Origin: Planctomycetota bacterium | GTDB lineage: Bacteria > Planctomycetota > MHYJ01 > WSZJ01 | Length of the DNA: 64,000 nt | Assembly (NCBI GenBank): GCA_038060895.1 | Contig: JBBTCT010000014.1 | Span: 28,549 to 92,548, forward strand | Reading direction: 5' to 3' | Shown here: positions 6,070 to 48,828 of the stretch, piece after piece | Layout: each line of letters opens with the position of its first letter | How positions within the stretch are numbered: position 1 is the first letter of the stretch | Translations under genes and position numbers: made by a program | The notes under the pieces: generated by a model | The model's database searches: none | What the model saw: only the letters and a program-made list of their open reading frames with translations | What the model was told of the DNA's origin: nothing

Positions 6070-6073
6070 ATGT

Positions 6074-6090
6074 TTCAAACCTCCGTTTCA
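6074..6090. promoter_or_regulatory. Candidate TetR operator (imperfect palindrome TTCAAAC-N4-GTTTCA)
   Basis: The palindrome lies in an AT-rich patch at the start of the TetR gene. A further TCAAAC half-site is at 6101-6106. Confidence 0.5.
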
Positions 6091-6135
6091 TATGTGTATA
6101 TCAAACATTAGTTCGAGTCAAGCCCGATTCCGAAC

Positions 6136-7773
6136 TTATTCTTCGAAAAGGCGCTCCCCGCGCGCCAGCTTCACCGTCGCATGTACCGTCTGGTTCACCG
6201 TACGATTCGTTGGCGAGTGCGACGACAGGTACCGCGCCACCGCCACCGCCGCAATCTGCGGGTCAACTCCCTTCACACCCATCCAAAGCCCCAGCCCCGC
6301 TTCAAACGCCTGCGCCGTGTGGAACCCGTGGTCCTCCAGCAGGTAAGCGCTCGCCATCTGTCTCCACAGTTCCTTCTCCTCGCGCCCCATCGCCAACCAG
6401 GTCGCCACGGTCCGGGCGGCATCCTCAACCCGCTTCCCTCCAATATCCCCGTGGAGTTTCGGAAAGATCTCCTCCATCGGCTCCGCCTCCCTCGGCTTCG
6501 GCACCGGGGCCGCCGGCATGTTCAGGAAGCGGACCAGGTAGACGTCCATTGCCCCGTGCAGCAGCGCCCGGATCCGCGGAAGGCCCGGCGACGCGCGCGC
6601 CACGAACCGCCGCGCCGCCTCCGCGTACGTGAACGCGTGGTGCACCGTGTCCCAGTCGAAGAACTCGTTCCGGAGGTGGAAGCGTGCGACGCGCATCAGC
6701 GCCGCGACCGCGAGCCGGTCCTCGGCGCCGGGCCTCGCCGCGGCCAGGCCGGCGACGACGCTGGCAGGGTCGTCGGAGAGCAGAGTGTCCGCGGCCACCC
6801 CTTCGCCCGTTTCGGCGCTCTCGATCAGCTCCACAAGATCGTGAGGAATTCTCCAGTCCGAGTCTTCCTCCGAGCGGGACGCCCCGGCGATGTCCGTCAC
6901 CAGCGACGCCAGGACGGGCGCGGCGTGCGCCCACCCGATCCGATCGAGCAGCTCGAACGCCTTCTCGGTGAAGTCGAGCGCATGCCCGCCATCGAGGAAG
7001 ACGTGGTCGGTCAGCGCGCCCAGGAACGCGTCGGCCAGTTCGCGCGGCGACGCGCCCTTGGCGATCATCGTGAGCAGGCAGCGTTTCGCGGCCTGCCCGT
7101 CGCGCTGCTCGACGAATTGCCGGAACCATCCGGAAAGCCGGCCCATGTCGAGCGTTTCCGCATGCGGAAGCGCTTCGACCGGGACGGGAGGCGGGCGGTT
7201 CTCGCAATCGCTCGCGACGGCGCGCAGGCCGTGGACGAGGGCGAGGATGCGGTCTTCGCGCGCCAGCTCGAGCGACGCAAGGACGTTCGCGTGGGCGGTA
7301 AGTATGGTGAGCCCGCTCGCCCACTCGTCGCGGAAGGCGACGCCGAAAAGCGCGCCCCGCTTCACGATTTCGACGTCGGAAGTGCCGGCGTCGATGAGAG
7401 CGACGACGGCGCGCGCGATTTTCGAGGTGTTGAATTCGCGGAGGCCCTCGTCGAGGAGTTTCCAGCGCGCGGCCGTCGCGTCGCCGCGGGGGCGGAGGTC
7501 GACCCAGACTTCGTCGCCGCGCATCTCGACGGGGTAGGAGGGGAGGTCGACGCCGCCCGCGGTGAGGCAGCCGCCGCCGCAGGCGTCGAAGCGCCACTGG
7601 TGCCAGTGGCAGGTGACGATGCCGTCCTTGAGGGAGCCCTTGTGCATGGGGAATCCGAGGTGGGGGCAGCGGTTGTCGAACGCGAAGACCTTGTCGCCTT
7701 CGGCCCAGATGCAGAGGCCGTCGGAGAGGAGGGGGCCGTCCTTGAGGCGGGAAAGCGTGGCGAGGTGTTTCAT
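6136..7773 (-). CDS. Rieske [2Fe-2S] domain protein with long helical C-terminal region
   Basis: Rieske ligands CPHLG and CHWHQW, followed by about 450 aa with repeated His motifs (GGHALDF, VHHAFTY, GFHTAQ). Confidence 0.85.
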   Translation of the reverse strand: MKHLATLSRLKDGPLLSDGLCIWAEGDKVFAFDNRCPHLGFPMHKGSLKDGIVTCHWHQWRFDACGGGCLTAGGVDLPSYPVEMRGDEVWVDLRPRGDATAARWKLLDEGLREFNTSKIARAVVALIDAGTSDVEIVKRGALFGVAFRDEWASGLTILTAHANVLASLELAREDRILALVHGLRAVASDCENRPPPVPVEALPHAETLDMGRLSGWFRQFVEQRDGQAAKRCLLTMIAKGASPRELADAFLGALTDHVFLDGGHALDFTEKAFELLDRIGWAHAAPVLASLVTDIAGASRSEEDSDWRIPHDLVELIESAETGEGVAADTLLSDDPASVVAGLAAARPGAEDRLAVAALMRVARFHLRNEFFDWDTVHHAFTYAEAARRFVARASPGLPRIRALLHGAMDVYLVRFLNMPAAPVPKPREAEPMEEIFPKLHGDIGGKRVEDAARTVATWLAMGREEKELWRQMASAYLLEDHGFHTAQAFEAGLGLWMGVKGVDPQIAAVAVARYLSSHSPTNRTVNQTVHATVKLARGERLFEE

Positions 7774-7827
7774 GGCGTTGGCCTCCGGTTTCGTGGGAAG
7801 CAGGATGCCTCATCCCCGGATAGTTAG

Positions 7828-7843
7828 TAAAGTAAGTACTTTA
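7828..7843. promoter_or_regulatory. Palindromic operator candidate TAAAGTA-AG-TACTTTA
   Basis: Perfect 7-bp inverted repeat in an AT-rich island 55 bp upstream of the Rieske gene. Confidence 0.5.
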
Positions 7844-7869
7844 TTAAATCAAAGCCCTGCGAACAGGCG

Positions 7870-7999
7870 CCGTATCCGCGGCTGTTTCCGCGAAATCAGC
7901 CTTTATCCGCGAATTCCTTCGCCGTTTTCAGGAAGTCTTTTTCAGGTAAACAGAATTCGCGGATGAAAGCGAATTACGCGGAAACTGCCGCGGATAAGG
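7870..7999. repeat. Two inverted copies of the ~47-bp repeat (REP/MITE-like)
   Basis: 7870-7916 is approximately the reverse complement of 7953-7999. Confidence 0.75.
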
Positions 8000-8020
8000 C
8001 CCGGCCATCATCGCCGTCCT

Positions 8021-9283
8021 CTAGTTCCCCGGCAAATGCCCCAAAACCATCTTCCCGATCTTCTCCGCCCCGAGGACCGCCGCGTTCGCCTTCGCCGCCG
8101 CCGGCGATTTCTTCGCCGCCACCGCGAGATAGTGGAACACGACCTCCCGCTGGAAATCCTTGTCATGCACCAGCGACGGCGATTCCCCCGGGTGATCCCT
8201 CACGTCCCGCGCTCGCTTCGCAATCCGCTGCGCCAGCCAGTCCCCCTCGGTCCCCTTCGCAGCCGCTTCCATCGATTCCGCCGCCTTCTCGTACTCGCCA
8301 TTCTCGGCGAGCCGTTCCCCCGTCAGGAACACCGCGACCGGGTTGTCCGGCCATGCCTGGATCGACAGCGCAATCTCCCGGTCCGCGCTTTCGTTGTCCT
8401 TCTGCTGCAGATACATGAACCCGAGGGCGAGGTGGATGCCCGCGAGCAGCTCCGGACCGTACCCCGCCCCTGCTCCGCCTGCGATCGCCGGCGCGCGGTT
8501 GATTTCCTCGCCCGCCAGGAGCGGCATCCCCAGCCGCGAGAAAATGATCCCGCGCACGAGGTGGAACGCCGTCCGGTCGTCGTCGTTCGGCAGCTTCGCC
8601 GGATCCGCCATCTCCAGCTCCCACAGCGCCATGTCGTTCTTGCCCAGAATCATGAACGCGATCGCCAGGTCCCGGCTCGCTTCCGGCGGCGGCGCCGCCG
8701 ACATTCCGCGCACATCTGACGCAATTCCCGCCCAGTCCGGCTTGCCGTCCGGCAGCCGCGCCCGCCCGTTCGCCCGCGTCGCCAGCCCCGAGGCCACCCT
8801 CGCCGGCTCCCGGATCGACTCCGGCAGCTCTTCAATGTCCTTCCCCTTCGCCTGCTCCGCCGCCGCCGCCATCCCCGCACACGACGCCGACCACGCCACC
8901 TTCCGCGCCGCACGGTACGCCTTCGCCTTCAACCCGCTCCGAATCTCCTCCAGCCGCTTCTCCTCGTCCGCAAACCGCGCTTCCCGCCTCGCCTCCCGCG
9001 CCGCCGCCGCGCACTCCTGCCGCGACTTCTTCTCTTCCTCCGGCGCCGCCGCATTCTTCGCAAGGATCTCGCCCGCCTTCTTCGAAGCGGCCTCGGCGTG
9101 AAGCGCCGCCGCGTCCGCCTGCTTCGGCTCCTTCGCCCAGCGCGCGGCCTTCGCCGCATCGCGGTCGCGTGCCGCAACATCACGAAGCGCGGGGATCGTG
9201 CCGGGAAGAGGCGCCTCCTTTTTGCCGCAGGCTGCAAAGAGTCCGGGAAGAAGGAGGAGCAACGGGATTGCGAAGCGCCTCAT
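8021..9283 (-). CDS. Lipoprotein with coiled-coil and TPR-like region
   Basis: Lipobox in MRRFAIPLLLLLPGLFAAC, an Ala/Lys-rich coil and TPR-like HLALGFMYLQ. The ATG overlaps the upstream stop. Confidence 0.7.
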   Translation of the reverse strand: MRRFAIPLLLLLPGLFAACGKKEAPLPGTIPALRDVAARDRDAAKAARWAKEPKQADAAALHAEAASKKAGEILAKNAAAPEEEKKSRQECAAAAREARREARFADEEKRLEEIRSGLKAKAYRAARKVAWSASCAGMAAAAEQAKGKDIEELPESIREPARVASGLATRANGRARLPDGKPDWAGIASDVRGMSAAPPPEASRDLAIAFMILGKNDMALWELEMADPAKLPNDDDRTAFHLVRGIIFSRLGMPLLAGEEINRAPAIAGGAGAGYGPELLAGIHLALGFMYLQQKDNESADREIALSIQAWPDNPVAVFLTGERLAENGEYEKAAESMEAAAKGTEGDWLAQRIAKRARDVRDHPGESPSLVHDKDFQREVVFHYLAVAAKKSPAAAKANAAVLGAEKIGKMVLGHLPGN

Positions 9284-10083
9284 CGCGACTCCGGGATGGT
9301 CAATTCCTGCGTGGCGTTGTGTCCGAATCCCACGAGCGATTCCTCGGTCACTCCCGGATGGCCACCGCGTTCCGATCTCACCAATCCTCCCCATGAGGCC
9401 TGCACGTCGCGCCAGATCACGTCTTTCCGGAGCCACCAGAAATCAGGTCGTCGGAACGAGGGCACTTCAGCGGACCACCAGCTCGTTTCGACTTCGACCG
9501 GATTTCCAGTAATGGAATAGTCCCAGGTGGTCTCCAGAACGACTCTCTCACAGGCAACTTCCCTGGAGCCGACACTCTTCTTCTCCAGCCAGATCTCTCC
9601 CCTGCGCAACTTCACTTTTCGAGGGCCCCCGATGAGGCTCAACTCTTTCATGCGCTTTGCGCCCGCTTCCCGGTCAGCCTCACTGCGCGGCGCGGGATGC
9701 TCGACCTTGACCGGGTGCCCCGTCTTGCCGGGACGGCCGATCCAGCAGTCCTTCACATGCTTTCCCGGTTTCGAGAGCCACGCCAGCAGAACCCACCCGG
9801 CCAGACCGTCACCGTCCGAGGCTGTCTGGACCAGGTACCCGTCTTCCGCGGACTTGAGCAAGGCGGTCCGGCATCGGATGGCCGGCTTCCCGTCCTTGGC
9901 AGCCACTTCGTATTCCACCCAGTCTCCCGGCTTGACGTTTTCAAGGGAAAGGTCCGACCAATGAGACTCCTTGATCGCGACGGGGGGCGGATCGTCCGCA
10001 GGACTGCATGCAGCCGTGCCGAAGGTGGCGAGAGCCGCTGCAAATAGACCCGACCACGAGTGCGCGCGTTTGCAGGAGATCAT
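9280..10083 (-). CDS. Hypothetical lipoprotein
   Basis: Signal peptide ending in TAAC, VKPGDWVEY and WWSAEVP motifs. CACAAT lies 6 nt upstream of the ATG. Confidence 0.6.
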   Translation of the reverse strand: MISCKRAHSWSGLFAAALATFGTAACSPADDPPPVAIKESHWSDLSLENVKPGDWVEYEVAAKDGKPAIRCRTALLKSAEDGYLVQTASDGDGLAGWVLLAWLSKPGKHVKDCWIGRPGKTGHPVKVEHPAPRSEADREAGAKRMKELSLIGGPRKVKLRRGEIWLEKKSVGSREVACERVVLETTWDYSITGNPVEVETSWWSAEVPSFRRPDFWWLRKDVIWRDVQASWGGLVRSERGGHPGVTEESLVGFGHNATQELTIPESR

Positions 10084-10244
10084 CGGTGCATTGTGACCCG
10101 GGCCGGACGCGTCATGGAAGCGCTGTTCGCGGGCGATCTCTGGCGCGAGCATGCGGGCGGGATTCGAGGAGCACAGGGGCGTTCTTCTCTTCGTGCGAAA
10201 ACCGTAAGTGCCCGAACGGACCCGGCGACCGTAGAATCCCCGGC

Positions 10245-10688
10245 TTGCGTCCCCCACCCGACCGCATCGCCCGCATCACCGTATCCGCCGTGCAGCCGCT
10301 CTTCGGCGGCTGGTCGCTCTGGATCCGCGGCGACGGCGCGGCGGCGGCATTCCGCGTCTCCCGGGGATGCCTTCTCTCGACGAGGCACGACGCGAAAGTA
10401 TCGGAGCCGGTGCTGCGGCGGATCGAAGCGATGCTGGCCGAGACGAAATTCTGGGAGCTGCCTCCCCCGACGCTGAAGGCAGCGCCGATGCCGGACGAAA
10501 CCTGGATTGAGATCGGCGCCAAGGCCCAGAGCGGGATCCAGGCCTCGGTAGGGAAGTTCGCGCGGCAGAAGAGCGAGAAGTTCGACCCGGTCCTGAAGGA
10601 GCTGGAAGGGATTGCGGCGCAGGCGTGGGCGGGGCCGAGGGTGTCGGAGGGGAAATACGATCCTTACGAGATTCCAGCGGGCTTCTGA
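10245..10688 (+). CDS. Hypothetical protein
   Basis: Protein-like composition from TTG 10245, which is 7 nt after TAGAAT. The start is uncertain. Confidence 0.55.
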   Translation: MRPPPDRIARITVSAVQPLFGGWSLWIRGDGAAAAFRVSRGCLLSTRHDAKVSEPVLRRIEAMLAETKFWELPPPTLKAAPMPDETWIEIGAKAQSGIQASVGKFARQKSEKFDPVLKELEGIAAQAWAGPRVSEGKYDPYEIPAGF

Positions 10689-10690
10689 AG

Positions 10691-11353
10691 TTGCCCGCGG
10701 ATCCGAGCGAAGGCTGGACGCCGGGCCGCAAGATTGCGGAATTGGTCAGGCTTGGGCGAAACCTGCGCTATTGGATCGGAGTACCAGTGGCGAAGCCTGC
10801 TCGCTGGAGCGAGGTTTACCGCGTTGACGCCGACGAAGTCTCAACAATTTCGGGAGAGCAGTGTCCTCTGCACGAAGTCAGGGCGTGGTTCTCGGCCACT
10901 CCGGACAACGAATTGTTCGAGATCGAAGGCGATTTACCGCTTCTGCCCGGAATCCACGGGCTTGTCCGGCACCAGCTTCCGGAACCGGAAAGGGTGACTG
11001 AGGCCGAATTGCGAAAGGGCAGATCTCTGGTCCTCGTGACGCATGGCCCCTGTGCTCTGCCGTGGCGCGACGCGCGACACTTTTCTACGCAGCTCCTGAA
11101 CGTCGGCCAGGAAGCCTTTACCGTAACCAGCTTCAGTGCCTACGCCAGGCAGCGCCCCGGGATCTACTGGACCACCATGCGTTTCTCCGCAACGCAGTTT
11201 CGCGCGTGGTATGACCTGGGTATCGAGGAGTGGATTGCGCCGGGAGCGCGTGTGTGGGATCCCGCAAATTATTCCGATCGCGCCACTCTCTGGGCGTATC
11301 GATGCGAAACTCGCGGAGGTCTGAATTTCGTGACCGGTGAGGTCTCCGCGTAA
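10691..11353 (+). CDS. Hypothetical protein
   Basis: Aromatic-rich ORF filling the gap between neighbours. The TTG start is tentative. Confidence 0.5.
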   Translation: MPADPSEGWTPGRKIAELVRLGRNLRYWIGVPVAKPARWSEVYRVDADEVSTISGEQCPLHEVRAWFSATPDNELFEIEGDLPLLPGIHGLVRHQLPEPERVTEAELRKGRSLVLVTHGPCALPWRDARHFSTQLLNVGQEAFTVTSFSAYARQRPGIYWTTMRFSATQFRAWYDLGIEEWIAPGARVWDPANYSDRATLWAYRCETRGGLNFVTGEVSA

Positions 11354-11361
11354 ACGAGGCG

Positions 11362-12345
11362 TCACTTCGAGGCGGCCTTCGCTTCTTCCAGCGCTGCGAC
11401 GATCCTCGCTTCGGCCTCGCTCCCCGCGAACCGCGTCTTCGCTTTCGCGAGCAGGTCAGCGGTCTTCTTCGCGTCTCCCGCCGCCTTCGCGTCCGCGATC
11501 GCCTTGTCCGCCGCTTCGTCGATCAACTTTGCGACGAGCTCTCCGCGGCTCTTCGCGTAGGCGCTCTTCGCTCCCGCGAGTTTTTTCAGCGCCGCGCCCG
11601 CTTTGCCGTACTGCTTTGCTTCCACGAGCGCGCGGGCGCCCTGGAGCAGGCCGAGGCAATCCGCCGGGACCAGGCTTTCCATCCACTCGAACTGCTGCTT
11701 CCACGCTTCCGCCGGCGGGTTGTGGGGCCAGTCTGGGGGTTCGTCGAAGGTCACGTCCATGCCCGCCTTCTTCATGTCCTCGACCGATTTCTTCGACTGG
11801 GCGTGGTTGAAATCCTTGCCGCCGCTGACGACGCGAAAGGGCGTCTTGAGCATCTTGCGCGCCATGTCCTCGCTGATCAGGCAGCCGCTGACCGGGGCGC
11901 CGGCCGTGAACGTCTCGGGGTGGTCGGTGCAGAGGTGGCAGGTCACGAACCCGCCCGCCGAGTGGCCTGAAACGTACACCCGGTCGCGGTCGATCGAATA
12001 CGTCGCCAGCACTTCGTTCGCGATCTCAACGATCCGCTTCATGTCTTCGTCGTCGTATCCCTGCGGATCCTTCGATGCCGGCAGGCACAGGATGTACCCC
12101 TTGTTCTTCGCGGCCGCGTAGTTCGACTCGTAGCTCTCCGGCCGGCCACCGGAGCCGTGGAACATGAAGATGATCCCGTACTTCTGCGCCGGCGAGTACT
12201 TCCCCGGCGCGTCGAGGATGTAGTAGCTCGGTCCGAACTCGATCTTCTGGCGCCCGCCCTTTGCCGGAGGCGGCTTGCGCGCGGCGCCCTGGGCGGCGGC
12301 GGGCAGGGCGAGGGCAAGGGCAAGGGCAAGGGAGAGAGCTCGCAT
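11362..12345 (-). CDS. Secreted alpha/beta hydrolase (PHB depolymerase/esterase-like)
   Basis: Signal peptide, FHGSGG, IDRDRVYVSGHSAGG nucleophile elbow, and Asp (GGKD) and His (WPH) candidates. Confidence 0.8.
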   Translation of the reverse strand: MRALSLALALALALPAAAQGAARKPPPAKGGRQKIEFGPSYYILDAPGKYSPAQKYGIIFMFHGSGGRPESYESNYAAAKNKGYILCLPASKDPQGYDDEDMKRIVEIANEVLATYSIDRDRVYVSGHSAGGFVTCHLCTDHPETFTAGAPVSGCLISEDMARKMLKTPFRVVSGGKDFNHAQSKKSVEDMKKAGMDVTFDEPPDWPHNPPAEAWKQQFEWMESLVPADCLGLLQGARALVEAKQYGKAGAALKKLAGAKSAYAKSRGELVAKLIDEAADKAIADAKAAGDAKKTADLLAKAKTRFAGSEAEARIVAALEEAKAASK

Positions 12346-12441
12346 GGGGGAGCATTCTGGCAGAGGCGACTTGAGAGCGGAAGCGCCTCGAAATCGAAAG
12401 CGAAGCCGATAGAATGCCCCTTTCACTCAAGGAGAATCGCG

Positions 12442-13737
12442 ATGCGCCTGCTCGCGCCGCTTGTTGCGTTCCTGCTCATCTCCGCCCCGCTTGTTCGCGC
12501 CGACGACGTCGCGGCCGACCAGCTTGCCGCGCCTTTCACGGCCGAAGCCGGTGGGAAGCCGATCGATCTCGCCGACGGGGTGGGGCATTCGGCGCCGCTG
12601 TTCGTGGACTGGGACGGCGACGGGCTGAGGGATCTGCTGGTCGGGCAGTTCGGCGGCGGAAAGCTGCGGATCTACCGCAACACGGGAAAGAAGGAAGCGC
12701 CCGCGTTCGACAAATTCGAGTGGTTCCAGGCGGCCGGCAAGGACGGCGTCGTCGAAACGGGCTGATGCGTCGGCTTCGGTCCGCAGGTTGCGGACCTGGA
12801 CGGCGACGGGCTGCGCGAGGTCTTGACGGGATCCTGGCCGGGCCCGGTGTTTGTTTTTCGAAGGCTCAAGGACGGCGCCTTCGCCGCAGTCGAGAGGCTG
12901 AAAGACACGGAAGGGAATGACTACCGGTTCGAGAACGTGAACGCTTCTTCCGTCGGCGCGGCCGACTGGGACTGCGACGGCGACGTGGACCTGGTGGTCG
13001 GGTACATCTCGGGGCCGATGTTCATCCTCAAGAACGAGAGCAAGGACGGCAAAGTCGCCTTCGGCGACGCCCTCCCGCTCATGGCGAACGGCAAGAAAGT
13101 CGAAGCCACCGACGCCGGCCCGTGCCTCGCGGACTGGGACGGCGACGGCATCGAAGACCTCATCCTGGGCGACGGCGAGGGCGGCGTGCGCCTCTTCCGC
13201 GCCCGTCGCAAGGGCGACAAGGGCTTCCCCGAACTCGGGGCGGAAGAGTGGCTGATTGCGCCGCGTCCCGCGAACGACCAGTGGACGCCGCTCAAGGCCG
13301 ACAAGGACGGTCACATCGAGAAGCCGCGCATCGGCGTCCGCACGAAGCCGTCCGTCGGCGACTGGAACGGCGACGGCAAGCCGGACCTGCTCGTCGGCGA
13401 TTACTCTTCCGTCGAAATGCCGGCGCGCGAGCTGACGGCCGAGGACCAGGCGAAGCTCAAGATCCTGAAGACGAAGGAAGACGCGCTTCTCGAGGAGAGC
13501 ACGAAGGTGTGGGAAGCGATGGAAAAGGAAGTCTTCCGGCAGATGGGGCTCGCCGCGGATGCAGAGGTCCCCGCTGCACGGAAGGCGGAGTACGACAAGT
13601 TGTGGGAGAAAGTCGCCGCGACGAACCCCGATAACGTGAGAATCGAGAACGAAATGGGCGAGACGATGGATGCGATCGCCCTGTACGAGTCGCGGCGCGG
13701 GTCCCGCGGGTTCGTGTGGGTCTACTTGCGGAAATAA
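12442..13737 (+). CDS. Secreted FG-GAP/VCBS-repeat protein, putative selenoprotein (in-frame UGA at 12763-12765)
   Basis: Two track ORFs share one frame across ETG-TGA-CVGFGPQVADLDGDG. There are five D(W/L)DGDG..DLL.G-type repeats, an AAGGAG SD and a signal peptide. Confidence 0.8.
12778..12796 (+). promoter_or_regulatory. SECIS-like hairpin
   Basis: GGTCCGCA-GGT-TGCGGACC: a perfect 8-bp stem with G-containing loop starting 12 nt after the UGA. Confidence 0.7.
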
Positions 13738-13822
13738 TCCGGATTTCCGGGAAGAAGATCGCCGCTTCAACGCACTCCTCCTTCAGAACCCCGCGAAGTG
13801 CGGGCTATGATTCGGAGGAGCG

Positions 13823-15991
13823 ATGAAGCCCTGCACCGACCTCGTCCAGCGAGCCCAAAGCGACCGCACGCCTGAGTCCTTGGGCGCCCTCGTTTCGGCC
13901 ACGCAGGCTGATGTGTTCCATTTTCTCTGCCGACAGTTGCGCCACGCCGCCGACGCCGAGGACGCAACTCAGGAAACGTTCCGGCAGGTTCTGCGCGCTC
14001 TTCCGTCTCTTCGCGACCCCGCGGCCTTCCCCGGCTGGATCCACCGCATCGCCCTGCGCTCGGCGCAGGACGTCGTGCGGGGACGGGCCGCGCGGAAGCG
14101 GCTCGCCGCGGAACTGCCGGGGCGCGCGAACACGGAGGGGGCGGCGATGAGCGAAGCGGAGAGGGCGGAGACACGGTTGGCGGTGCGAGGGGCGGTCGAG
14201 GAGCTCGACGAAGAGCTGCGGACGACGGTCGTCCTGCGCTACGAGCAGGGCCTGTCGTACGGCGAGATCGCGGAGGCGATGGAATGCCCCGAGGGGACGG
14301 TGGGGAAGCGGCTGCACAGGGCGCACGAACGCCTTCGGGTTGCGCTCGCGGGGGCGGCCATCGCGCTGACATTGGTGGCCGTGGAGACGGAGCTGTCGGC
14401 TGAGCCTCGTGTCGAAACGCCCGTCAGGCTGAAAGAGTCCCTGACGCGAATGTCGCGCGGAGAGATTCCGGTCGCGCACTCGAAGCGCGCACTGGTTCAG
14501 CGACTCCTCGTCGTCGTGCTGGCCGTTGCAGCGCTGTTCCTCGTCCTCTGGCGATTCGGCTTTCCCGTTCGCCGGCCGGCGGGAGATGGAGGAAGCGCGG
14601 ACAACCGCGTTGCTTCGGCTCTTCCGGGAAATGCCGGTACCGCGAAGTCATCTCTCACGGAGAGTCCTTCCGGCGGCGTCGAGAACGGGAATTCTCCCGC
14701 GGCCACGGCGGTTTCCGCTTGCCGAGTGACCGGGCAGGTTCGCGAAGCCGCGTCGGGCGAGACGATCGCCGGGGCCCGCGTCTGGCTGGTCACCGCGGAC
14801 GCGCCGGCACGCATCATTGTTGAGACGAAGACTGATGCCCTGGGGAACTACGGATTCGAGGTGCCGCCCGGGAATTGGTTGATCGACGTAGCGGCCGAGG
14901 GATTCGTGCGCCTGCAGACCGCGATCGTTTTCGAGCGGCAACTTGCCTTGCTAGAGCATGAAGCGAGGGCAGCACATGATCACCACGAACGAGCCGTGAC
15001 CCGCGGGCGAGTGACGACAACTGCGGGTGAGAATACGAGGGTCGACCTCGAAGTTCCGAAGGCCGTGGCTGCTCGAGGCATCGTCTCGGATGAAGACGGA
15101 GTACCGGTCGAGGATGCGGTCGTCGCTTTCGAGATGCACGGCGTGGAACTTCCGGATGGCGGTTTCTGGTACAGCTACGGCAATGACGACCGCCCCAAAT
15201 CGGTGCGGACCGATTCAGCGGGTTCCTTCATGCTGACGGGCCTTCTCGGCATGGGGGAAGTAGAACTCAACGTGAACCGAATTGGATTCCAGCCGACCAA
15301 AGTCAAGGTGTCGCTCGGTCCACTCGGCGCCGACGCGTCTATCGCGCTGCGGCGCGGCATCGGAATCTCCGGGATCGTAGTCGACACGGAAGGACACCCG
15401 GTGTCCGGCGCGTGCATCCTTCTCGCGGAGGGAGACTCCTCAAAAGTCCGACTTCTCGTTGTCCAGGAGACGCGCGCCGACGCCGGCGGGCGCTTCAGCA
15501 TTCCCGACGCCCCTAGCGGGACCTCCGCGATCGTTGCCGCAGCCTCCGGATTCGGCTGGACCGCCGCCGCGCCGGACGTAGGAGGCGCTTCCCTCACTCT
15601 CGTCCTGCCGCGCGCTACCGGCATCCTTCGCGGCGCTATCCGCGACGAGAATGGAAAGCTCCTGCCCGGAGTGGAAGTCCGCGTGGAGGGCTATTTCGGG
15701 CAATCCGCGGCGGGCGCTGGGCTGATCAACACTGTTGATGAGCACGGCGGAAGCTGGACCTCGCCGAAGCCCGGTGAAATGAGTGGAGTCCTGCCGCGGG
15801 AATTGCGGATGCCCTTCGCCCGGACCGATGAGAAGGGCGAATTCAGTCTCGATGCTGTCTGTCTCAGTGGAGGCATGATGCCTCACTTGTCCATCGAGGC
15901 CGATGGATTCCGGTCGAAGCGCATAGAGGCGACGACTTCCACATTCCTGGAAATCCTGCTGGAACGAGAGTCGGGCGAACACTCGAAGTAA
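13823..15991 (+). CDS. ECF sigma factor fused to TM helix and carboxypeptidase-regulatory-like repeats (paralog 1)
   Basis: Sigma2 DAEDATQETF..LRDPAAFPGWIHRIA, sigma4 LRYEQGLSYGEIAEAMECPEGTV..RLHRA, TM LLVVVLAVAALFLVLW, and repeats G.V.D..G.PV.GA...TD..G.F. GGAGGAG SD. Confidence 0.88.
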   Translation: MKPCTDLVQRAQSDRTPESLGALVSATQADVFHFLCRQLRHAADAEDATQETFRQVLRALPSLRDPAAFPGWIHRIALRSAQDVVRGRAARKRLAAELPGRANTEGAAMSEAERAETRLAVRGAVEELDEELRTTVVLRYEQGLSYGEIAEAMECPEGTVGKRLHRAHERLRVALAGAAIALTLVAVETELSAEPRVETPVRLKESLTRMSRGEIPVAHSKRALVQRLLVVVLAVAALFLVLWRFGFPVRRPAGDGGSADNRVASALPGNAGTAKSSLTESPSGGVENGNSPAATAVSACRVTGQVREAASGETIAGARVWLVTADAPARIIVETKTDALGNYGFEVPPGNWLIDVAAEGFVRLQTAIVFERQLALLEHEARAAHDHHERAVTRGRVTTTAGENTRVDLEVPKAVAARGIVSDEDGVPVEDAVVAFEMHGVELPDGGFWYSYGNDDRPKSVRTDSAGSFMLTGLLGMGEVELNVNRIGFQPTKVKVSLGPLGADASIALRRGIGISGIVVDTEGHPVSGACILLAEGDSSKVRLLVVQETRADAGGRFSIPDAPSGTSAIVAAASGFGWTAAAPDVGGASLTLVLPRATGILRGAIRDENGKLLPGVEVRVEGYFGQSAAGAGLINTVDEHGGSWTSPKPGEMSGVLPRELRMPFARTDEKGEFSLDAVCLSGGMMPHLSIEADGFRSKRIEATTSTFLEILLERESGEHSK

Positions 15992-44006: not shown

Positions 44007-45701
44007 TCAGAACCTGACGCGCTTCCGCGGATGCTTCAGCAGCAGTTCGCTCCAGCTCACCCGCGCTTCCCGCTCGTCCCCGCTGTGCCGCCGCACCGCG
44101 TCGCCCCGGGCCTTCGCCCGCGGCGATGACGCCGGCTCCCGCGTCGCCCGCTCCAGGTCGGGCCCGTCGAAATAGCCCGTAGACCGCCCGGCCTCCAGGA
44201 GCGCGCCGCCGTACCCGCGCGGGCCGATCTCGTGGAAGCGCGTGTCGATCTTCTGCGCCGCGGCGACCGTGGCAGCGCCGTCCGTCGTCGCGGTGGCCGC
44301 AGCCTTCGCGACGCCGCGCCAGCCACCCTCCTCCGCCAGCGCCTCCGCCACCAGGTCGCGCTTCGCCACCCAGTCCACTTCCTTGTAAAGCAGGTGCGGG
44401 TCCTCCGCGAGCGCTTCCAGCACATAGCGCCATTTCGAAAGCACCTCGGCCGTCTCCGGTTCCGCATTCTTGCCGCAGAATTTCTCAGCTTCTTCCAGGT
44501 AGTACTTCTGGATCTGAAGCGCCGTCATTGCCGTCCCGTCCGCGAGCGGAATCGGCCTGGTGAGCGCCGGGTCGCCGTCGACGATCGCGATCGCCTCGCC
44601 CAGGTCGCGCGGGGCGAGGTTGCGAAGCGGGTGTCCGGCCTCGATCATCCGGAGCACGAGGTCCGTCGTCCCGAGCCGCAGCACCGTCGCCAGACGCGAC
44701 GTGTTCGAGTCCGCAAACAGAACCTGCATGCGCTTCCGCCGCGACCAGATGCTCCAGGGTTCGCGCACGAAATTCTTCAGGTCGAACACGGGGCGCCTGG
44801 CGTCGTCCCAGTAGATTCCCGCGGCGTGCCGGATCGCGGGGGCCTTGTGCGAGAGCGCGACGGTGGCGCCGTCGGCGGCGACGCGGCCGGGGCCGCAGAA
44901 GACGAGGCGCGTGTACAGGTGGGGGAGGAGAAGACGCCGGGCGTCCGGAAAAGCCGCCTTGCGGAGAAGGACGTCGTACCCGCGCACCCAGGGGAGCGTG
45001 ACCGCGTACGTGAGGTCCATGAGCCGGACCAGCGTTTCTTCGCGCACCAGCGCGCGCCCGAGGCTCAGGATCCCGCGCGCGCCCGCCGCGAACGGCCGGC
45101 CGAGGAGTGGAAGCGGCGCGAGCGCGGCGCAGAGAAGGTAGGACGCGGCCGCGGCGAGGAACATCGAGTAGAGGAGGAGCTTGAAAATCGACTCCGCGAT
45201 GCGCAGCGGGATCCAGAACGCCGGGAACGCCAACGCGAGAAGAAGCACGCGCAGGACGGAGGCCGGGTCGTCCACCTCGTAGTTCTCGTGCGACCCCCAC
45301 ACATTCCCCGCCGAGTCCGCGGCAGCCTTGCCTACGACGAGTTCGCCCTCGAAGCCGCGCGTCCGCAGCCGGAATTCCGCTTCACCATGCAAGCGGCCGA
45401 GAAGCACGTCCTGCGCGTGATGGTAGCGCGCCGCCTCGAGCGGCCCCCGGCATTCCGGCGTCGCCATTTCCAGGAGGCCCGTCGAAAATCGCGCCGTCGG
45501 CGCCTCGTAATGCATCAGCCCGCCCGTGGCCAGAAAGACGCCGCCCTTCGGCACGGCCGCCGGCAGCGCCGGCACCTCGGCCCGCACCGCAGCCTCGACG
45601 ACTTCGTAGATGTCACGCGGAAGCGGCGATCGGCCGCCAGCTTCGCGCGGCACCCAGGCGAGGGCGAATTCGGTTTCGACGCCGATGAGCCGGGGGTGCA
45701 T
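44007..45701 (-). CDS. PafA/Dop-family (Pup ligase/deamidase-like) protein with inserted hydrophobic segments
   Basis: IGVETEF, FLATGG, EMATPEC, GSHENY, RMQVLFADSN, LRLGTT.LVL.MIE, TALQIQ..YLE, EVDWVAK, D.RFHEI and RA.ARG. Confidence 0.9.
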   Translation of the reverse strand: MHPRLIGVETEFALAWVPREAGGRSPLPRDIYEVVEAAVRAEVPALPAAVPKGGVFLATGGLMHYEAPTARFSTGLLEMATPECRGPLEAARYHHAQDVLLGRLHGEAEFRLRTRGFEGELVVGKAAADSAGNVWGSHENYEVDDPASVLRVLLLALAFPAFWIPLRIAESIFKLLLYSMFLAAAASYLLCAALAPLPLLGRPFAAGARGILSLGRALVREETLVRLMDLTYAVTLPWVRGYDVLLRKAAFPDARRLLLPHLYTRLVFCGPGRVAADGATVALSHKAPAIRHAAGIYWDDARRPVFDLKNFVREPWSIWSRRKRMQVLFADSNTSRLATVLRLGTTDLVLRMIEAGHPLRNLAPRDLGEAIAIVDGDPALTRPIPLADGTAMTALQIQKYYLEEAEKFCGKNAEPETAEVLSKWRYVLEALAEDPHLLYKEVDWVAKRDLVAEALAEEGGWRGVAKAAATATTDGAATVAAAQKIDTRFHEIGPRGYGGALLEAGRSTGYFDGPDLERATREPASSPRAKARGDAVRRHSGDEREARVSWSELLLKHPRKRVRF

Positions 45702-45743
45702 GGGAGAAAGCGGCGGCGAAAAAACTTCGGGACCGGCCGCCTG

Positions 45744-45914
45744 CTACTCGCCGCCGCCCGGCACAGTCGTCGCTTTCACATACTCCAGGGGCTGCGTCTT
45801 CGCGTCCTTCGCGATCGCCGCGATTGCGGCAGCCGCGCGATCCAGCGGCGGCGCGACGGGCGGCGCCACAACCGGCGCCTCGGTGGACGGTACTGGCTTG
45901 TCATTCTGCGACAT
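45744..45914 (-). CDS. Pup/UBact-like small modifier protein (56 aa, ends GGE)
   Basis: Manual translation gives MSQNDKPVPSTEAPVVAPPVAPPLDRAAAAIAAIAKDAKTQPLEYVKATTVPGGGE*. It has a GAGG SD and lies 42 nt upstream of the PafA-like gene. Confidence 0.8.
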   Translation of the reverse strand: MSQNDKPVPSTEAPVVAPPVAPPLDRAAAAIAAIAKDAKTQPLEYVKATTVPGGGE

Positions 45915-46041
45915 GGTTGCCTCGCGAACATGGGGAGGACTCGCCGGTCCTGCGCTTCAGGGGAAAGTTGGCGGCGTCGTGCGGGCTTCCACCCCGCAAG
46001 GCCCGTCTTCCCCTTCCGGCCTTCCTCACTAACCGCTTTGA

Positions 46042-46070
46042 ACGATAGGCGTGCCCGGACCACGCGTCAA
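46042..46070 (-). promoter_or_regulatory. Sigma70-like promoter TTGACG-N17-TATCGT for the pup-pafA-like pair
   Basis: Near-consensus hexamers with a 17-bp spacer on the minus strand. Confidence 0.55.
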
Positions 46071-47190: not shown

Positions 47191-48828
47191 CTACTTCGGC
47201 GTCCCCGCCGCCTTCGCGGCCGCTTCGTTTTCCTCGAGCACCGCTTCGAGCCCGAAAAAGTGTTTCCGCAGGACGCGGTCGCGATCGACCCACCAGGTGG
47301 CGCGGGCTTTGTCGCCGACGCGCTCGACGAATTTGCAGAGCATGACTTTCTGGCCGCGGATTTCCGTCTCCTGCTCGCCGTGACATTCGAGGATGCAGAG
47401 GGCGGGTTCGGTCTGGGCCATGGCGAGCCGCTGGACGGAGCGGCGGGAGCCGGGGGCCTGCGGGAACGTGGCGATCCACTGGTGGAGGCCGAAGCCGGGC
47501 ACGAAATCTTCGGGCAGCGTGCGCTTGTAGGGTTTGCCCTGCCACGTGCCGATGAAGCCGGTTTCGATGTGGCGGAGTGTGAAGAAGGGCTGGCCGAGTT
47601 CGGTCTGGATTCCGTCCTGCATGAAGTGGCAATTGGCGATGCGGTCGTTGGCGCCGAAGACGACGACGGCGGAGGAGTCGTGCCACTGGTTGTCCTGGCC
47701 CATGTAGTGGGTTTCGGCCTCGAACATCGCTCCTTCGCCGGTCGGGCTGACCGTCTGGGATTCCCAACCTGCGGGCTGGCCGTCCTTCGTGAGCGAGAAC
47801 CAGCACTTCATTTTCTTGAGCGGGGCCCTCTCGCCGAGTTCGCGCGTCGGCGCGGCGCCGACCGAGGGTGGAAGATCCTCCGGTCTCCGGGGCGGGTCGG
47901 ACGTTCGATTGGCGACGGCAGAGTTGGCGCCCGGCGGGGGAGGGGCGGTTGCACGTCCGAGGAGGCGCGAAGGCGAGTCGGCGATTCCGGGCGGCATGGG
48001 CGCGCCCCCGGGGATCTGGGAAGGCATGATGATTCCGGATCCGGGGACGCCGGACGGCCTGCTCGTGGCACCCGGCGGCGAAATGACGGTGGACTGCCGC
48101 CCCACGGGGCTTCCCGTCGAGCCAAGAACCTTCGTCGGGTCGTCGAATCCTGCGATCCCGCCGCCGCCCGTCTGCCTGTCGCGGGGCGTCGTCGGGGCCA
48201 AGGTCTGCTTCGCAATCGTCTCCGACACCTCAAGGTACGCTTCGAGACCGAAGCTCACGCGCAGGACGGTCCTGTCCGCATCCACCCACCAGTGATTCCG
48301 CTCCTTGCCGGCGACGCGCTCGATGAAGTGCCACGCCTTGAGGGGCCGGCCGCCGACCTTGACGAATTCCTCGCCCATGCATTCGATCGACGCGGGCGCC
48401 GCTGCGTCCGATCCCATCGGCAGCCGCGAGAACCCGGCAAGCGAGCGATCCTCGAACGGAAGCGTGGCGACCCACTCGGCGTTGCCGAAATTGGGAAGGA
48501 AGTCGTGGGGAAGGATTTTGGTGAAGGGCTTCCCGGCCCACGTCCCGCTGAAGACGTCGCCGTTGCGGCGGATCTGGAATCCCATGACACCGTCGCTCTG
48601 GTAGCGGACGGCCTCGAGCCGCGTGCCGCCGGTCCCGAACGCGAGGGTCGCGATCCCCTCGGACATCCCGGTCGGTGAACGGCGCGCCGTAAATGTCTCA
48701 ACCGTGGCGCTTCCGTCGGACACCGCCGAAACCACGTGGCGTTCGTAGCCCACCCGTTGCCCGTTCTGGTCCCACAGGGAGTACCAGCGGACGCCGCTTT
48801 TGAAAGGTGTGCGTTGAACGGTCGGCAT
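47191..48828 (-). CDS. Hypothetical protein with internally duplicated domain and Pro/Gly linker
   Basis: WYSL..NGQ.VGYE / WFSL.KDGQ.AGWE, GTWAGKPF / GTWQGKPY and WWVDADRTVL / WWVDRDRVL. Confidence 0.75.
   Translation of the reverse strand: MPTVQRTPFKSGVRWYSLWDQNGQRVGYERHVVSAVSDGSATVETFTARRSPTGMSEGIATLAFGTGGTRLEAVRYQSDGVMGFQIRRNGDVFSGTWAGKPFTKILPHDFLPNFGNAEWVATLPFEDRSLAGFSRLPMGSDAAAPASIECMGEEFVKVGGRPLKAWHFIERVAGKERNHWWVDADRTVLRVSFGLEAYLEVSETIAKQTLAPTTPRDRQTGGGGIAGFDDPTKVLGSTGSPVGRQSTVISPPGATSRPSGVPGSGIIMPSQIPGGAPMPPGIADSPSRLLGRATAPPPPGANSAVANRTSDPPRRPEDLPPSVGAAPTRELGERAPLKKMKCWFSLTKDGQPAGWESQTVSPTGEGAMFEAETHYMGQDNQWHDSSAVVVFGANDRIANCHFMQDGIQTELGQPFFTLRHIETGFIGTWQGKPYKRTLPEDFVPGFGLHQWIATFPQAPGSRRSVQRLAMAQTEPALCILECHGEQETEIRGQKVMLCKFVERVGDKARATWWVDRDRVLRKHFFGLEAVLEENEAAAKAAGTPK

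What the first reader, a model, noticed from the sequence alone, without database searches (positions are those of the whole stretch)
44007..45914. Two-gene, apparently membrane-anchored pupylation-like system: hidden GGE-ending modifier plus PafA-family enzyme with a TM insert
Seen: a 56-aa ORF below the track cutoff, Pro/Ala-rich and ending ...EYVKATTVPGGGE*, directly upstream of and co-oriented with a PafA/Dop-family gene. Right after the GSHENY motif the enzyme has a long hydrophobic insert (LRVLLLALAFPAFWIPL...IFKLLLYSMFLAAAASYLLCAALAPLPLLG). There are no proteasome, Mpa/ARC or second Dop/PafA genes in the window. Known: actinobacterial Pup ends GGQ/GGE and is ligated through its terminal Glu by PafA; a GGE end needs no deamidation, and UBact is a related modifier in Gram-negative phyla. 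I recall TM-containing PafA homologues being noted computationally in Planctomycetes/Deltaproteobacteria, but not characterised. Inference: a minimal, possibly proteasome-independent tagging system acting at the membrane, with a modifier that resembles Pup mainly in its EYV...GGE tail.
Basis: partly seen in the sequence, partly recalled or inferred. Interest (0 to 1): 0.88.

Follow-up and report, generated by a model that had tools for sequence, protein, structure and literature searches.

The report
Membrane-anchored Pup-like protein tagging pair
A small protein ending in Gly-Gly-Glu sits directly in front of a membrane-anchored relative of the mycobacterial Pup ligase; this two-gene tagging system without a proteasome was predicted from sequence in 2008 and, as far as my searches show, has not been tested at the bench.

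Summary
Window 45744-45914(-) encodes a 56-aa protein ending VPGGGE. 42 nt downstream, 44007-45701(-) encodes a 564-aa Pup_ligase (PF03136, 238 bits) with a ~105-residue hydrophobic helical insert right after GSHENY.

The small ORF is a real gene:
- A same-strand ORF ending GGE lies just upstream of 40 of 41 insert-bearing homologues from at least eight phyla, and in all 10 relatives' loci.
- dN/dS is 0.12-0.30.
- 871 library representatives match its profile, and the best 150 all end GGE.
- A co-fold scores 0.88 against 0.01 for controls, though a like complex is solved.

No second Pup_ligase, Mpa or proteasome was found in the genome (86.5% complete). None of 11 cassette-bearing genomes showed a 20S pair.

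Iyer, Burroughs and Aravind (2008) described this pairing in Rhodopirellula and Plesiocystis and proposed pupylation of membrane proteins.
- the modifier family misses the Pfam Pup model (0 of 34);
- it never ends in GGQ;
- the enzyme branches outside the PafA+Dop clade;
- the enzyme carries Glu in place of the catalytic Asp;
- the window belongs to a small divergent sub-lineage.

Verdict: new member of a known, uncharacterised kind. Interest is moderate.

The parts
45744..45914 (-). Gene for the 56-aa modifier (stop codon included). The N-terminal ~22 residues are variable and Pro/Ala-rich. The C-terminal ~32 residues are conserved and end VPGGGE.
   Evidence: ORF. Family alignment A2. 40 of 41 long-form loci and 11 of 11 loci including the window's own carry the same ORF. 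dN/dS is 0.12-0.30. The profile finds one copy in the genome.
45920..45923 (-). GAGG, a Shine-Dalgarno-like tetramer 6-9 nt upstream of the modifier's ATG.
   Evidence: Read directly. Similar GGAG/AAGG motifs lie upstream of many homologous small ORFs. This is a consensus resemblance only.
46042..46070 (-). Sigma-70-like promoter match (TTGACG, 17 nt, TATCGT) in the 171-nt gap between the DUF72 gene and the modifier gene.
   Evidence: 1 site found against 0.1 expected from shuffles. A pattern match, not evidence of function.
44007..45701 (-). Gene for the 564-aa membrane-type Pup_ligase homologue (stop codon included).
   Evidence: PF03136 at 238.3 bits. Below the PafA and Dop equivalog cut-offs. 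AF2 model with pLDDT 93.8. Foldseek top hits are Dop 4b0r and PafA 4bjr.
45279..45296 (-). GSHENY motif, residues 136-141, on the active-site strand that precedes the insert.
   Evidence: Read. G136, E139 and Y141 are invariant in A1 and A4.
44952..45275 (-). Family-specific insert, residues ~143-250, modelled as helices 149-194, 201-218 and 221-249.
   Evidence: Insertion point. Absent from PafA rows. Helices. Present in all 56 long-form rows, at 78-129 aa.
45192..45266 (-). First TM-length hydrophobic stretch, residues 146-170.
   Evidence: Kyte-Doolittle 19-residue mean of 1.96. No dedicated TM predictor was available.
45099..45188 (-). Second TM-length hydrophobic stretch, residues 172-201, followed by an Arg-rich amphipathic segment.
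   Evidence: Kyte-Doolittle 19-residue mean of 1.93.
45504..45506 (-). Codon of Glu66, aligned with the catalytic Asp of PafA/Dop.
   Evidence: A1 places E66 under the Asp that ends the strand in the PafA rows. It is invariant in 56 of 56 long forms. It touches the modifier in the co-fold. The role of the Asp comes from Cui et al. 2021. The equivalence is my inference from the alignment.

Best explanation
This is a two-gene, membrane-anchored, proteasome-independent pupylation-type conjugation system.

The 56-aa protein is an intrinsically disordered modifier. Its conserved C-terminal ~32 residues dock as helices in the groove of the ligase's C-terminal domain and put the terminal Glu into the glutamine-synthetase-type active site.

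The enzyme is held at the cytoplasmic face of the inner membrane by a hydrophobic helical insert that starts about five residues after the active-site strand. It uses ATP to phosphorylate the gamma-carboxylate of that Glu, then transfers the modifier to an amine. The most likely acceptor is the epsilon-amino group of lysines on membrane or membrane-proximal proteins.

The modifier is encoded with a terminal Glu, so no deamidase is needed. There is no Dop, Mpa or 20S core, so the tag is not a proteasome degron. It more likely regulates or marks membrane proteins.

Shown here: gene pair, family, insert, conservation, purifying selection, absence of partners. Inferred: ligase chemistry (from the family), membrane location (hydropathy only), protein-lysine acceptors, and a non-degradative role.
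For: - Family and fold: PF03136 at E 2.2e-70. Foldseek hits Dop 4b0r at E 7.7e-25 (TMt 0.82) and PafA-Pup 4bjr at E 1.5e-23. The acidic and Arg columns E9, E11, E78, E83, E139, R265 and R324 are invariant between long forms and actinobacterial PafA.
- Modifier is a real gene: 40 of 41 long-form loci have a same-strand ORF ending GGE, -1 to 224 nt upstream. So do 11 of 11 loci of the window's genus and order, the window's own included. dN/dS is 0.12-0.30 in 6 of 6 congeneric comparisons. 871 library representatives match at E<=0.001, and 150 of the best 150 end GGE.
- Binding model: ipSAE was 0.88 in three runs against a best of 0.01 in 3 controls. That mark was reached by 58 of 80 solved complexes and 2 of 110 mismatched pairs. 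Runs share at least 79% of contacts and partner pLDDT is at least 69. Modifier residues 23-56 contact ligase 450-506 and active-site residues 11-18, 66, 68, 74-76, 122-138. PafA-Pup and Dop-Pup complexes are solved, so this pass may reflect likeness.
- Membrane anchor: two hydrophobic stretches, and an all-helical insert with pLDDT 81-96. The insert is present in 56 of 56 long forms.
- No partners in the genome: one Pup_ligase, no PF00227, no Mpa over the cut-off.
- No partners in other cassette-bearing genomes: of 11, 6 have no PF00227 match, and the main hit in the other 5 is HslV over its equivalog cut-off.
- Prior prediction of the same mechanism: Iyer et al. 2008.
- Expression hint: RNA-library contigs at 99% identity or more cover both genes, and one bridges them.
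Against: - No conjugate has been observed for any member, as far as my searches show.
- The modifier is not detectably a Pup. 0 of 34 members hit PF05639. Profile-profile comparison with canonical Pup gives only 10.7% probability, E 0.0029.
- The enzyme is below both the PafA and the Dop equivalog cut-offs.
- It has Glu where PafA/Dop have the catalytic Asp.
- It lacks the Thr-Thr pair of the alpha-loop in the A1 alignment. The AF2 model shows no PafA-like helix there. By Hecht et al. 2020 an alpha-helix there marks PafA and a loop marks Dop.
- By PDB sequence search it scores higher against Dop (120 bits) than against PafA (84 bits).
- Membrane insertion rests on hydropathy alone. AF2 draws residues 149-194 as one 46-residue helix rather than a two-TM hairpin.
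- The RNA evidence is contigs from one study. DNA carry-over was not excluded, because no silent stretch was laid.
- The genome is 86.5% complete, so absences are not proof.
- One weak PF00227 match in G013 (40.9 bits) is unexplained.
Confidence: 0.7

Rival explanations
1. The chemistry is the same, but the tag is a degron for a membrane-bound or other AAA+ protease such as FtsH, rather than a regulatory mark. The system would then be a membrane-protein quality-control pathway that replaces the Mpa-proteasome with another unfoldase-protease.
For: In actinobacteria the known role of Pup is degradation (background). The genome has several generic AAA+ matches, 6 at 52-147 bits to the Mpa model, none over the cut-off. 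The modifier keeps a disordered, variable N-terminal tail of about 20 residues that an unfoldase could engage.
Against: No AAA+ or protease gene is a conserved neighbour. No neighbour cluster occurs in more than 6 of 42 loci. The only conserved part of the modifier is the ligase-binding C-terminal ~32 residues, with no second conserved surface for a receptor.
Confidence: 0.2
2. The acceptor is not a protein lysine but an amine at the membrane surface, such as the head group of phosphatidylethanolamine or an ornithine lipid. The modifier would become lipid-anchored, by analogy with Atg8 lipidation.
For: The hydrophobic insert begins about five residues after the active-site strand (GSHENY 136-141, hydrophobic from 146). 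This should hold the catalytic face close to the bilayer. The alpha-loop region, which binds protein targets in PafA (Hecht 2020), is not conserved here. The superfamily ligates small amines such as ammonia and cysteine.
Against: No direct evidence. Every characterised member of PF03136 acts on protein lysines or on Pup itself. Nothing in the loci points to lipid metabolism.
Confidence: 0.06
3. The enzyme works mainly as a Dop-like amidase/depupylase, or the small protein is a pseudo-substrate regulator or a peptide matured at its C-terminus, and no protein conjugation takes place.
For: The PDB sequence score is higher against Dop than against PafA. There is no PafA-type helix in the alpha-loop region of the model. 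There are 11 extra residues at the position of the Dop-loop relative to PafA. Hecht 2020 notes partial alignment with the Dop-loop.
Against: A hydrolase alone, with a modifier already ending in Glu, has nothing to hydrolyse. 150 of 150 best family members end GGE and none ends GGQ. 4 of 5 other genomes and the window's own hold a single Pup_ligase gene. NCBIfam scores PafA (163.8) above Dop (145.4). The enzyme branches outside the PafA+Dop clade rather than with Dop. Hecht 2020 argues that the ancestor was a ligase with promiscuous hydrolase activity.
Confidence: 0.05

Closest known systems
Membrane-type Pup / Pup-ligase pair of Rhodopirellula and Plesiocystis (Iyer, Burroughs & Aravind 2008, Biol Direct 3:45; computational prediction)
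   Same: A small G[EQ]-ending protein gene lies adjacent to a single PafA-family gene. A TM insertion follows core strand 4 immediately. There is no linkage to proteasome genes. The predicted location is the cytoplasmic face of the membrane (compared).
   Different: The window's enzyme sits in a separate 7-row sub-lineage. Pirellulaceae and Nannocystaceae rows fall in the main 46-row clade. Only two clear hydrophobic stretches are seen here, against the four TM segments reported. No linked membrane-protein gene is present: the neighbours are DUF72 and an OYE oxidoreductase. The paper's Additional file 1 could not be seen.
Actinobacterial Pup-PafA-Dop-Mpa-20S pathway
   Same: Same enzyme family and fold. 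The modifier ends Gly-Gly-Glu and is predicted to lie in the same groove with its end in the active site. The chemistry is presumed to be ATP-dependent gamma-glutamyl phosphate formation.
   Different: No Dop, Mpa or 20S. The modifier misses the Pup HMM, while 3 of 3 canonical Pups hit it. It is never GGQ. The enzyme has a ~105-aa membrane insert and Glu for the catalytic Asp, is below the equivalog cut-offs, and branches outside PafA+Dop.
UBact systems of Nitrospirota, Verrucomicrobiota and others (Lehmann et al. 2017; recalled, paper not held in the library)
   Same: A Pup-like small modifier with a PafA homologue in Gram-negative phyla.
   Different: As I recall, UBact loci carry proteasome and Mpa-like genes, soluble ligases, and a modifier ending in a single Gly before Glu/Gln. 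Here there is no proteasome, the ligase has a membrane insert, and the end is Gly-Gly-Glu. No Pfam or NCBIfam family of that name matched any of 34 members. I did not verify that those libraries hold a UBact model.
Single-copy Planctomycetes PafA/Dop homologue used as outgroup by Hecht et al. 2020 (MBE 38:761)
   Same: It is single-copy, about 29-31% identical to both PafA and Dop, partly aligned with the Dop-loop, and branches outside the PafA/Dop duplication. My tree agrees.
   Different: In the passages I read, that paper does not mention the membrane insert or the adjacent modifier. Its supplementary alignment could not be seen.

Membership tests
Pup_ligase superfamily (Pfam PF03136; carboxylate-amine ligase, GS fold) | HMM score over the gathering cut-off | tested here: met
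   238.3 bits against a cut-off of 25, E 2.2e-70.
Pup_ligase superfamily (Pfam PF03136; carboxylate-amine ligase, GS fold) | Fold of PafA/Dop | tested here: met
   AF2 pLDDT 93.8. Foldseek: Dop 4b0r at E 7.7e-25 with TMt 0.82, and PafA 4bjr at E 1.5e-23.
Pup_ligase superfamily (Pfam PF03136; carboxylate-amine ligase, GS fold) | Conserved acidic and Arg active-site columns | tested here: met
   E9, E11, E78, E83, E139, R265 and R324 are invariant across long forms and PafA rows. The roles of these residues are recalled, not tested.
PafA, Pup--protein ligase (NCBIfam TIGR03686 equivalog) | Score over the equivalog cut-off | tested here: not met
   163.8 bits against 551.3.
PafA, Pup--protein ligase (NCBIfam TIGR03686 equivalog) | Catalytic Asp (D64 in C. 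glutamicum PafA) | tested here: not met
   Glu66 occupies the aligned column and is invariant in 56 of 56 long forms. This is a conservative replacement, and the equivalence is inferred from the alignment.
PafA, Pup--protein ligase (NCBIfam TIGR03686 equivalog) | Alpha-helical 'alpha-loop' with the conserved Thr-Thr pair | tested here: inconclusive
   The Thr-Thr pair is not conserved in A1. The model shows only a 3-residue helix plus strands at 283-307. Both observations depend on the alignment and the model.
Dop, depupylase/deamidase (NCBIfam TIGR03688 equivalog) | Score over the equivalog cut-off | tested here: not met
   145.4 bits against 492.3.
Dop, depupylase/deamidase (NCBIfam TIGR03688 equivalog) | Dop-loop of ~40 residues before strand beta2 | tested here: not met
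   Only about 11 extra residues relative to PafA at that position.
Pup (Pfam PF05639) | HMM match | tested here: not met
   0 of 34 family members matched at E<=10. 3 of 3 canonical Pup controls hit at 1e-17 to 1e-21. hhalign probability is 10.7%.
Pup (Pfam PF05639) | C-terminal Gly-Gly-Glu/Gln | tested here: met
   VPGGGE in the window. 150 of the best 150 family members end GGE.
Pup (Pfam PF05639) | Gene adjacent to a PafA-family gene | tested here: met
   42-nt gap in the window. 40 of 41 long-form loci.
Pup (Pfam PF05639) | Binds the ligase groove with its C-terminus in the active site | tested here: inconclusive
   The co-fold scores 0.88 against a best control of 0.01. This is a model only, and like complexes are solved.
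UBact | Match to a UBact profile | not testable with these tools
   No such family appeared for any of 34 members in Pfam or NCBIfam. I could not confirm that either library holds a UBact model, and I had no UBact sequence from a tool.
UBact | Linkage to proteasome and Mpa-like genes (recalled) | tested here: not met
   None in the window or the genome. No conserved neighbour.
Membrane-type Pup system of Iyer et al. 2008 | TM insertion immediately C-terminal to core strand 4 of the ligase | tested here: met
   The insert lies between Dop-equivalent residues 159 and 161. It has two TM-length hydrophobic stretches.
Membrane-type Pup system of Iyer et al. 2008 | Four TM segments | tested here: inconclusive
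   Crude hydropathy finds 2 here. Across 56 long forms it finds 1 (11 rows), 2 (32 rows) or 3 (13 rows). No TM predictor was available.
Membrane-type Pup system of Iyer et al. 2008 | No linkage to proteasome genes | tested here: met
Membrane-type Pup system of Iyer et al. 2008 | Linked gene for a membrane protein | tested here: not met
   The window's neighbours are DUF72 and an OYE oxidoreductase. No neighbour cluster occurs in more than 6 of 42 loci.

The most novel reading that the evidence does not exclude
The family is the undivided, pre-duplication form of the PafA/Dop enzyme. Its catalytic face is pinned to the bilayer, so its acceptors would be amines of the membrane surface itself, such as lipid head groups like phosphatidylethanolamine. 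That would be a bacterial counterpart of Atg8 lipidation built on Pup chemistry, perhaps reversible by the same enzyme.
Probability: 0.06. Interest if true: 0.9.

Novelty: new member of a known kind. Interest (0 to 1): 0.42.

Why it matters
Pupylation is understood almost entirely as a proteasome degron in actinobacteria. This cassette has a modifier and one membrane-bound enzyme, and no deamidase, unfoldase or proteasome. It is widespread: at least eight phyla among the fetched loci, and 871 modifier representatives in the library. It branches outside the PafA/Dop duplication.

If it conjugates, it would show what Pup-type tagging does without a proteasome, and what the ancestral enzyme could do. 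The targets would be a new layer of membrane-protein regulation in Planctomycetota, Myxococcota and others.

In practical terms, the modifier family has no Pfam or NCBIfam model, and the enzyme is annotated only as 'PafA2 family'. Annotation pipelines therefore miss the pairing. The idea itself dates from 2008. This window adds one more member from an uncultured groundwater planctomycete rather than a new handle on the question.

Tried and rejected
**UBact membership.** No family of that name matched. I could not confirm that a model exists in those libraries. Papers holding 'UBact' gave no description. I left this open.

**ESM Atlas.** The search for the modifier found the exact sequence but no usable look-alike.

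**A conserved third gene.** BLASTP clustering of ORFs of 70 aa or more in 42 loci found none in more than 6 loci. The recurrent ones are a divergent amidohydrolase (6 loci), Ser/Thr kinases, an enolase-superfamily gene and a T2SSE ATPase. I rejected all of these as core parts.

**Terminator.** None was found after the ligase gene. The four hits lie inside genes or upstream of the cassette.

**TM topology.** I had only Kyte-Doolittle windows.

**RNA evidence.** Only contigs were laid, so they give no strand, ends or level. Parts without cover say nothing.

**Literature follow-up.** Searches found no experimental work on the membrane-type system. A 2025 review (PMC12288473) holds none of the six terms I searched in it. 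The library omits most subscription journals, and supplements were closed. Additional file 1 of Iyer 2008 and supplementary file 1 of Hecht 2020 may already list these modifiers or this insert.

**Rows dropped.**
- A4 and the tree leave out long-form loci L011, L025 and L032, because their start is uncertain or the ORF is cut.
- They also leave out P0002, P0004, P0007, P0013, P0018, P0019, P0021 and P0023, which are near-duplicates or partial.
- A2 holds 33 of the 40 loci modifiers. L004, L007, L015, L022, L034, L038 and L062 were left out for uncertain, over-long starts.
- The tree uses 26 of 39 short-form loci, picked by hand.
- A3 holds 17 of the 22 canonical Pups listed.
Full report
**What is there.**
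On the minus strand, 45744..45914 encodes a 56-aa protein ending ...EYVKATTVPGGGE. After a 42-nt gap, 44007..45701 encodes a 564-aa protein. The small protein has 9 Pro and 12 Ala in 56 residues, by direct count. A GAGG lies 6-9 nt before its ATG. The only sigma-70-like match in the region lies in the 171-nt gap upstream of it (1 found, 0.1 expected).

The large protein matches Pup_ligase PF03136 at E 2.2e-70. It is far below the curated cut-offs for PafA (163.8 against 551.3 bits) and Dop (145.4 against 492.3 bits). GSHENY is residues 136-141.

A sequence search of solved structures aligns query 78-142 to Dop 99-159 and query 246-558 to Dop 161-461. About 103 residues are therefore inserted at a single point. 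Actinobacterial PafA rows are gapped across this stretch.

Hydropathy gives two TM-length stretches, 146-170 and 172-201. An AF2 model built on 56 sequences has pLDDT 93.8. It draws the insert as helices 149-194, 201-218 and 221-249. The rest of the model matches Dop and PafA structures, with 4b0r at E 7.7e-25 and 4bjr at E 1.5e-23.

**Is the small ORF real?**
A scan of one genome per species returned 80 loci. 41 of them encode insert-bearing ('long') ligases, from the following groups:
- Planctomycetota
- Myxococcota
- Bdellovibrionota
- Acidobacteriota
- Spirochaetota, including Leptospiraceae
- Verrucomicrobiota
- Vulcanimicrobiota
- a bin labelled Proteobacteria

In 40 of the 41 loci, a same-strand ORF ending GGE stops -1 to 224 nt before the ligase. 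L024 has none in 11.6 kb. None ends GGQ.

As a control, the 80 loci hold 12,435 stop-to-stop segments of 30 aa or more. 72 end GG[EQ]. 40 of these are the long-form modifiers and 28 are canonical Pups beside short-form ligases. Only 4 are neither.

In the window's own lineage the ligase was found in 6 of 7 other genomes of the genus and in 4 of 4 of the order. It was found in 0 of 29 genomes from other orders of the class. All 11 loci, the window's included, carry the GGE ORF. One of them, L091, appears to be the same genome as L002.

Over the last 36 codons, dN/dS against six congeners is 0.12-0.30. A profile of 34 modifiers (A2) finds one copy in the window's genome. It finds 871 representatives at E<=0.001 in the 1.84-billion-protein library. 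The best 150 all end GGE: VPHGGE 77, VPEGGE 25, VPFGGE 13, and VPGGGE, as here, 6. Their median length is 56 aa. The gene is therefore real, translated and widespread, and gene callers do find it.

**Is it Pup?**
Only loosely. None of the 34 members matches Pfam Pup or any meaningful Pfam or NCBIfam family, even at E<=10. By contrast, 3 of 3 canonical Pups from the short-form loci hit PF05639 at 1e-17 to 1e-21. Profile-profile comparison with 17 canonical Pups gives 10.7% probability and E 0.0029, with the C-termini in register.

Only the C-terminal ~32 residues are conserved. They follow a pattern of hydrophobic residues, then R-x-D-A/S, then Y-L-x-E-T-x-V-P-x-G-G-E.

A co-fold of ligase and modifier scored 0.88 in each of three runs, against a best of 0.01 in 3 controls. 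That mark was reached by 58 of 80 solved complexes and 2 of 110 mismatched pairs. Runs agree in at least 79% of contacts, and partner pLDDT is at least 69. Modifier residues 23-56 lie on ligase helices 450-506, and the tail lies among active-site residues 11-18, 66, 68, 74-76 and 122-138. PafA-Pup and Dop-Pup complexes are solved, so this shows likeness to them rather than proof of binding.

**What kind of enzyme?**
A quick IQ-TREE of 82 rows puts the 26 short-form rows on one side of a branch with SH-aLRT 100. These are PafA of Actinomycetota and Poribacteria, and Dop of Actinomycetota, Myxococcota and Spirochaetota. All 56 long forms lie on the other side. This agrees with Hecht et al. 2020, who used single-copy Planctomycetes homologues as the outgroup to the PafA/Dop duplication (passages).

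The window's protein sits in a 7-row sub-clade (100*). That sub-clade is separate from the main 46-row clade, which holds the Pirellulaceae and Nannocystaceae rows.

The acidic and Arg columns shared with PafA are intact. The residue aligned with the catalytic Asp is Glu66. The Asp is D94 in Dop and D64 in C. glutamicum PafA (Cui et al. 2021, passages). Glu66 is invariant in 56 of 56 long forms, though the equivalence is my inference from the alignment.

The alpha-loop Thr-Thr pair is not conserved. About 11 extra residues sit where Dop has its ~40-residue loop.

The modifier always ends in Glu, and 4 of 5 other genomes as well as the window's own hold a single family member. The enzyme must therefore at least ligate. 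Whether it also removes the tag is open.

**No degradation machinery.**
The genome is 86.5% complete. It has no PF00227 match and no Mpa over the cut-off (best 146.6 against 504.75 bits).

Of 10 further cassette-bearing genomes, 5 have no PF00227 match, one of them a 10.6-Mb genome with a complete chromosome. In the other 5, the main match is HslV over its equivalog cut-off at the same place. One weak extra match in G013 is unexplained.

No neighbour is conserved beyond 6 of 42 loci. The window's flanks are DUF72 and a convergent OYE oxidoreductase.

**Expression.**
Contigs from aquifer metatranscriptome libraries lie on the ligase and the modifier at 99% identity or more. They come from one study and at most two samples. 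One contig (45663-45913) and another (45624-45798) bridge the two genes. These are contigs, and DNA carry-over was not excluded, so this is a hint only.

**Comparison with what is known.**
Iyer, Burroughs and Aravind (2008; passages read) reported the following for Plesiocystis and Rhodopirellula:
- Pup and the Pup ligase are not linked to proteasome genes.
- The ligases carry an insertion of four TM segments immediately C-terminal to core strand 4.
I found no experimental follow-up, within a library that lacks most subscription journals and with supplements closed.

**Verdict.**
The finding is real and correctly read. It is a new member, in a divergent sub-lineage, of a kind predicted in silico in 2008 and still uncharacterised.
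- the breadth of the family;
- the strict GGE ending;
- the lack of any profile model for the modifier;
- the position of the enzyme outside PafA+Dop;
- the Asp-to-Glu change;
- the absence of a conserved third gene;
- a passing co-fold.

Noticed in passing
L096 (G003:C23:546000-562000), about 5100-14100, minus strand: A planctomycete that carries the membrane cassette (L003) also has a second, soluble locus. It holds two adjacent Pup_ligase paralogues (536 aa, and 929 aa with a TPR-like tail), an Mpa-like AAA ATPase with a proteasomal OB domain (225 bits to pup_AAA, below the cut-off), a JAB/MPN protein, and a possible 65-aa ORF ending NGE with no family match. It lies inside a longer 380-aa repeat-rich open frame, so its start is uncertain. 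The genome has no PF00227 match.
   Followed up: partly
L002, L003, L006, L009, L013, L023, about 0.6 kb upstream of the cassette, opposite strand: An Amidohydro_1 family gene is a divergent neighbour in 6 of 42 long-form loci. It could be a candidate isopeptidase or mere synteny. It is not present beside the window's cassette.
   Followed up: partly
L024:4550-5000: This is the one long-form locus without a GGE-ending ORF. A small, very hydrophobic ORF lies directly upstream of the ligase instead. No GG[EQ]-ending segment of 30 aa or more exists anywhere in the 11.6-kb locus.
   Followed up: partly
window 47191-48828 (-): A 545-aa ORF with no Pfam match. By eye, its two halves repeat each other: similar blocks recur around the WWVD...FGLEA motifs. 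It looks like an internally duplicated protein of unknown family.
   Followed up: no
L040-L048, L051, L056, L064-L066, L073, L075, L078: Canonical Pup (PF05639-type tail, GGE or GGQ) lies beside short-form PafA/Dop genes in MAGs labelled Poribacteria, Myxococcota/delta proteobacterium and Spirochaetales. The classical system therefore also occurs outside Actinomycetota. In Myxococcota and Spirochaetota, both the classical and the membrane type are present in the phylum.
   Followed up: partly
G013:C65:30776-31252: A weak PF00227 match (40.9 bits, 143 of 189 positions) that is not the genome's HslV. It is unexplained.
   Followed up: no
window 45663-45913: An RNA-library contig (run X13) ends one base short of the modifier's ATG at 45914. 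With contigs alone this cannot be read as a transcript end.
   Followed up: no
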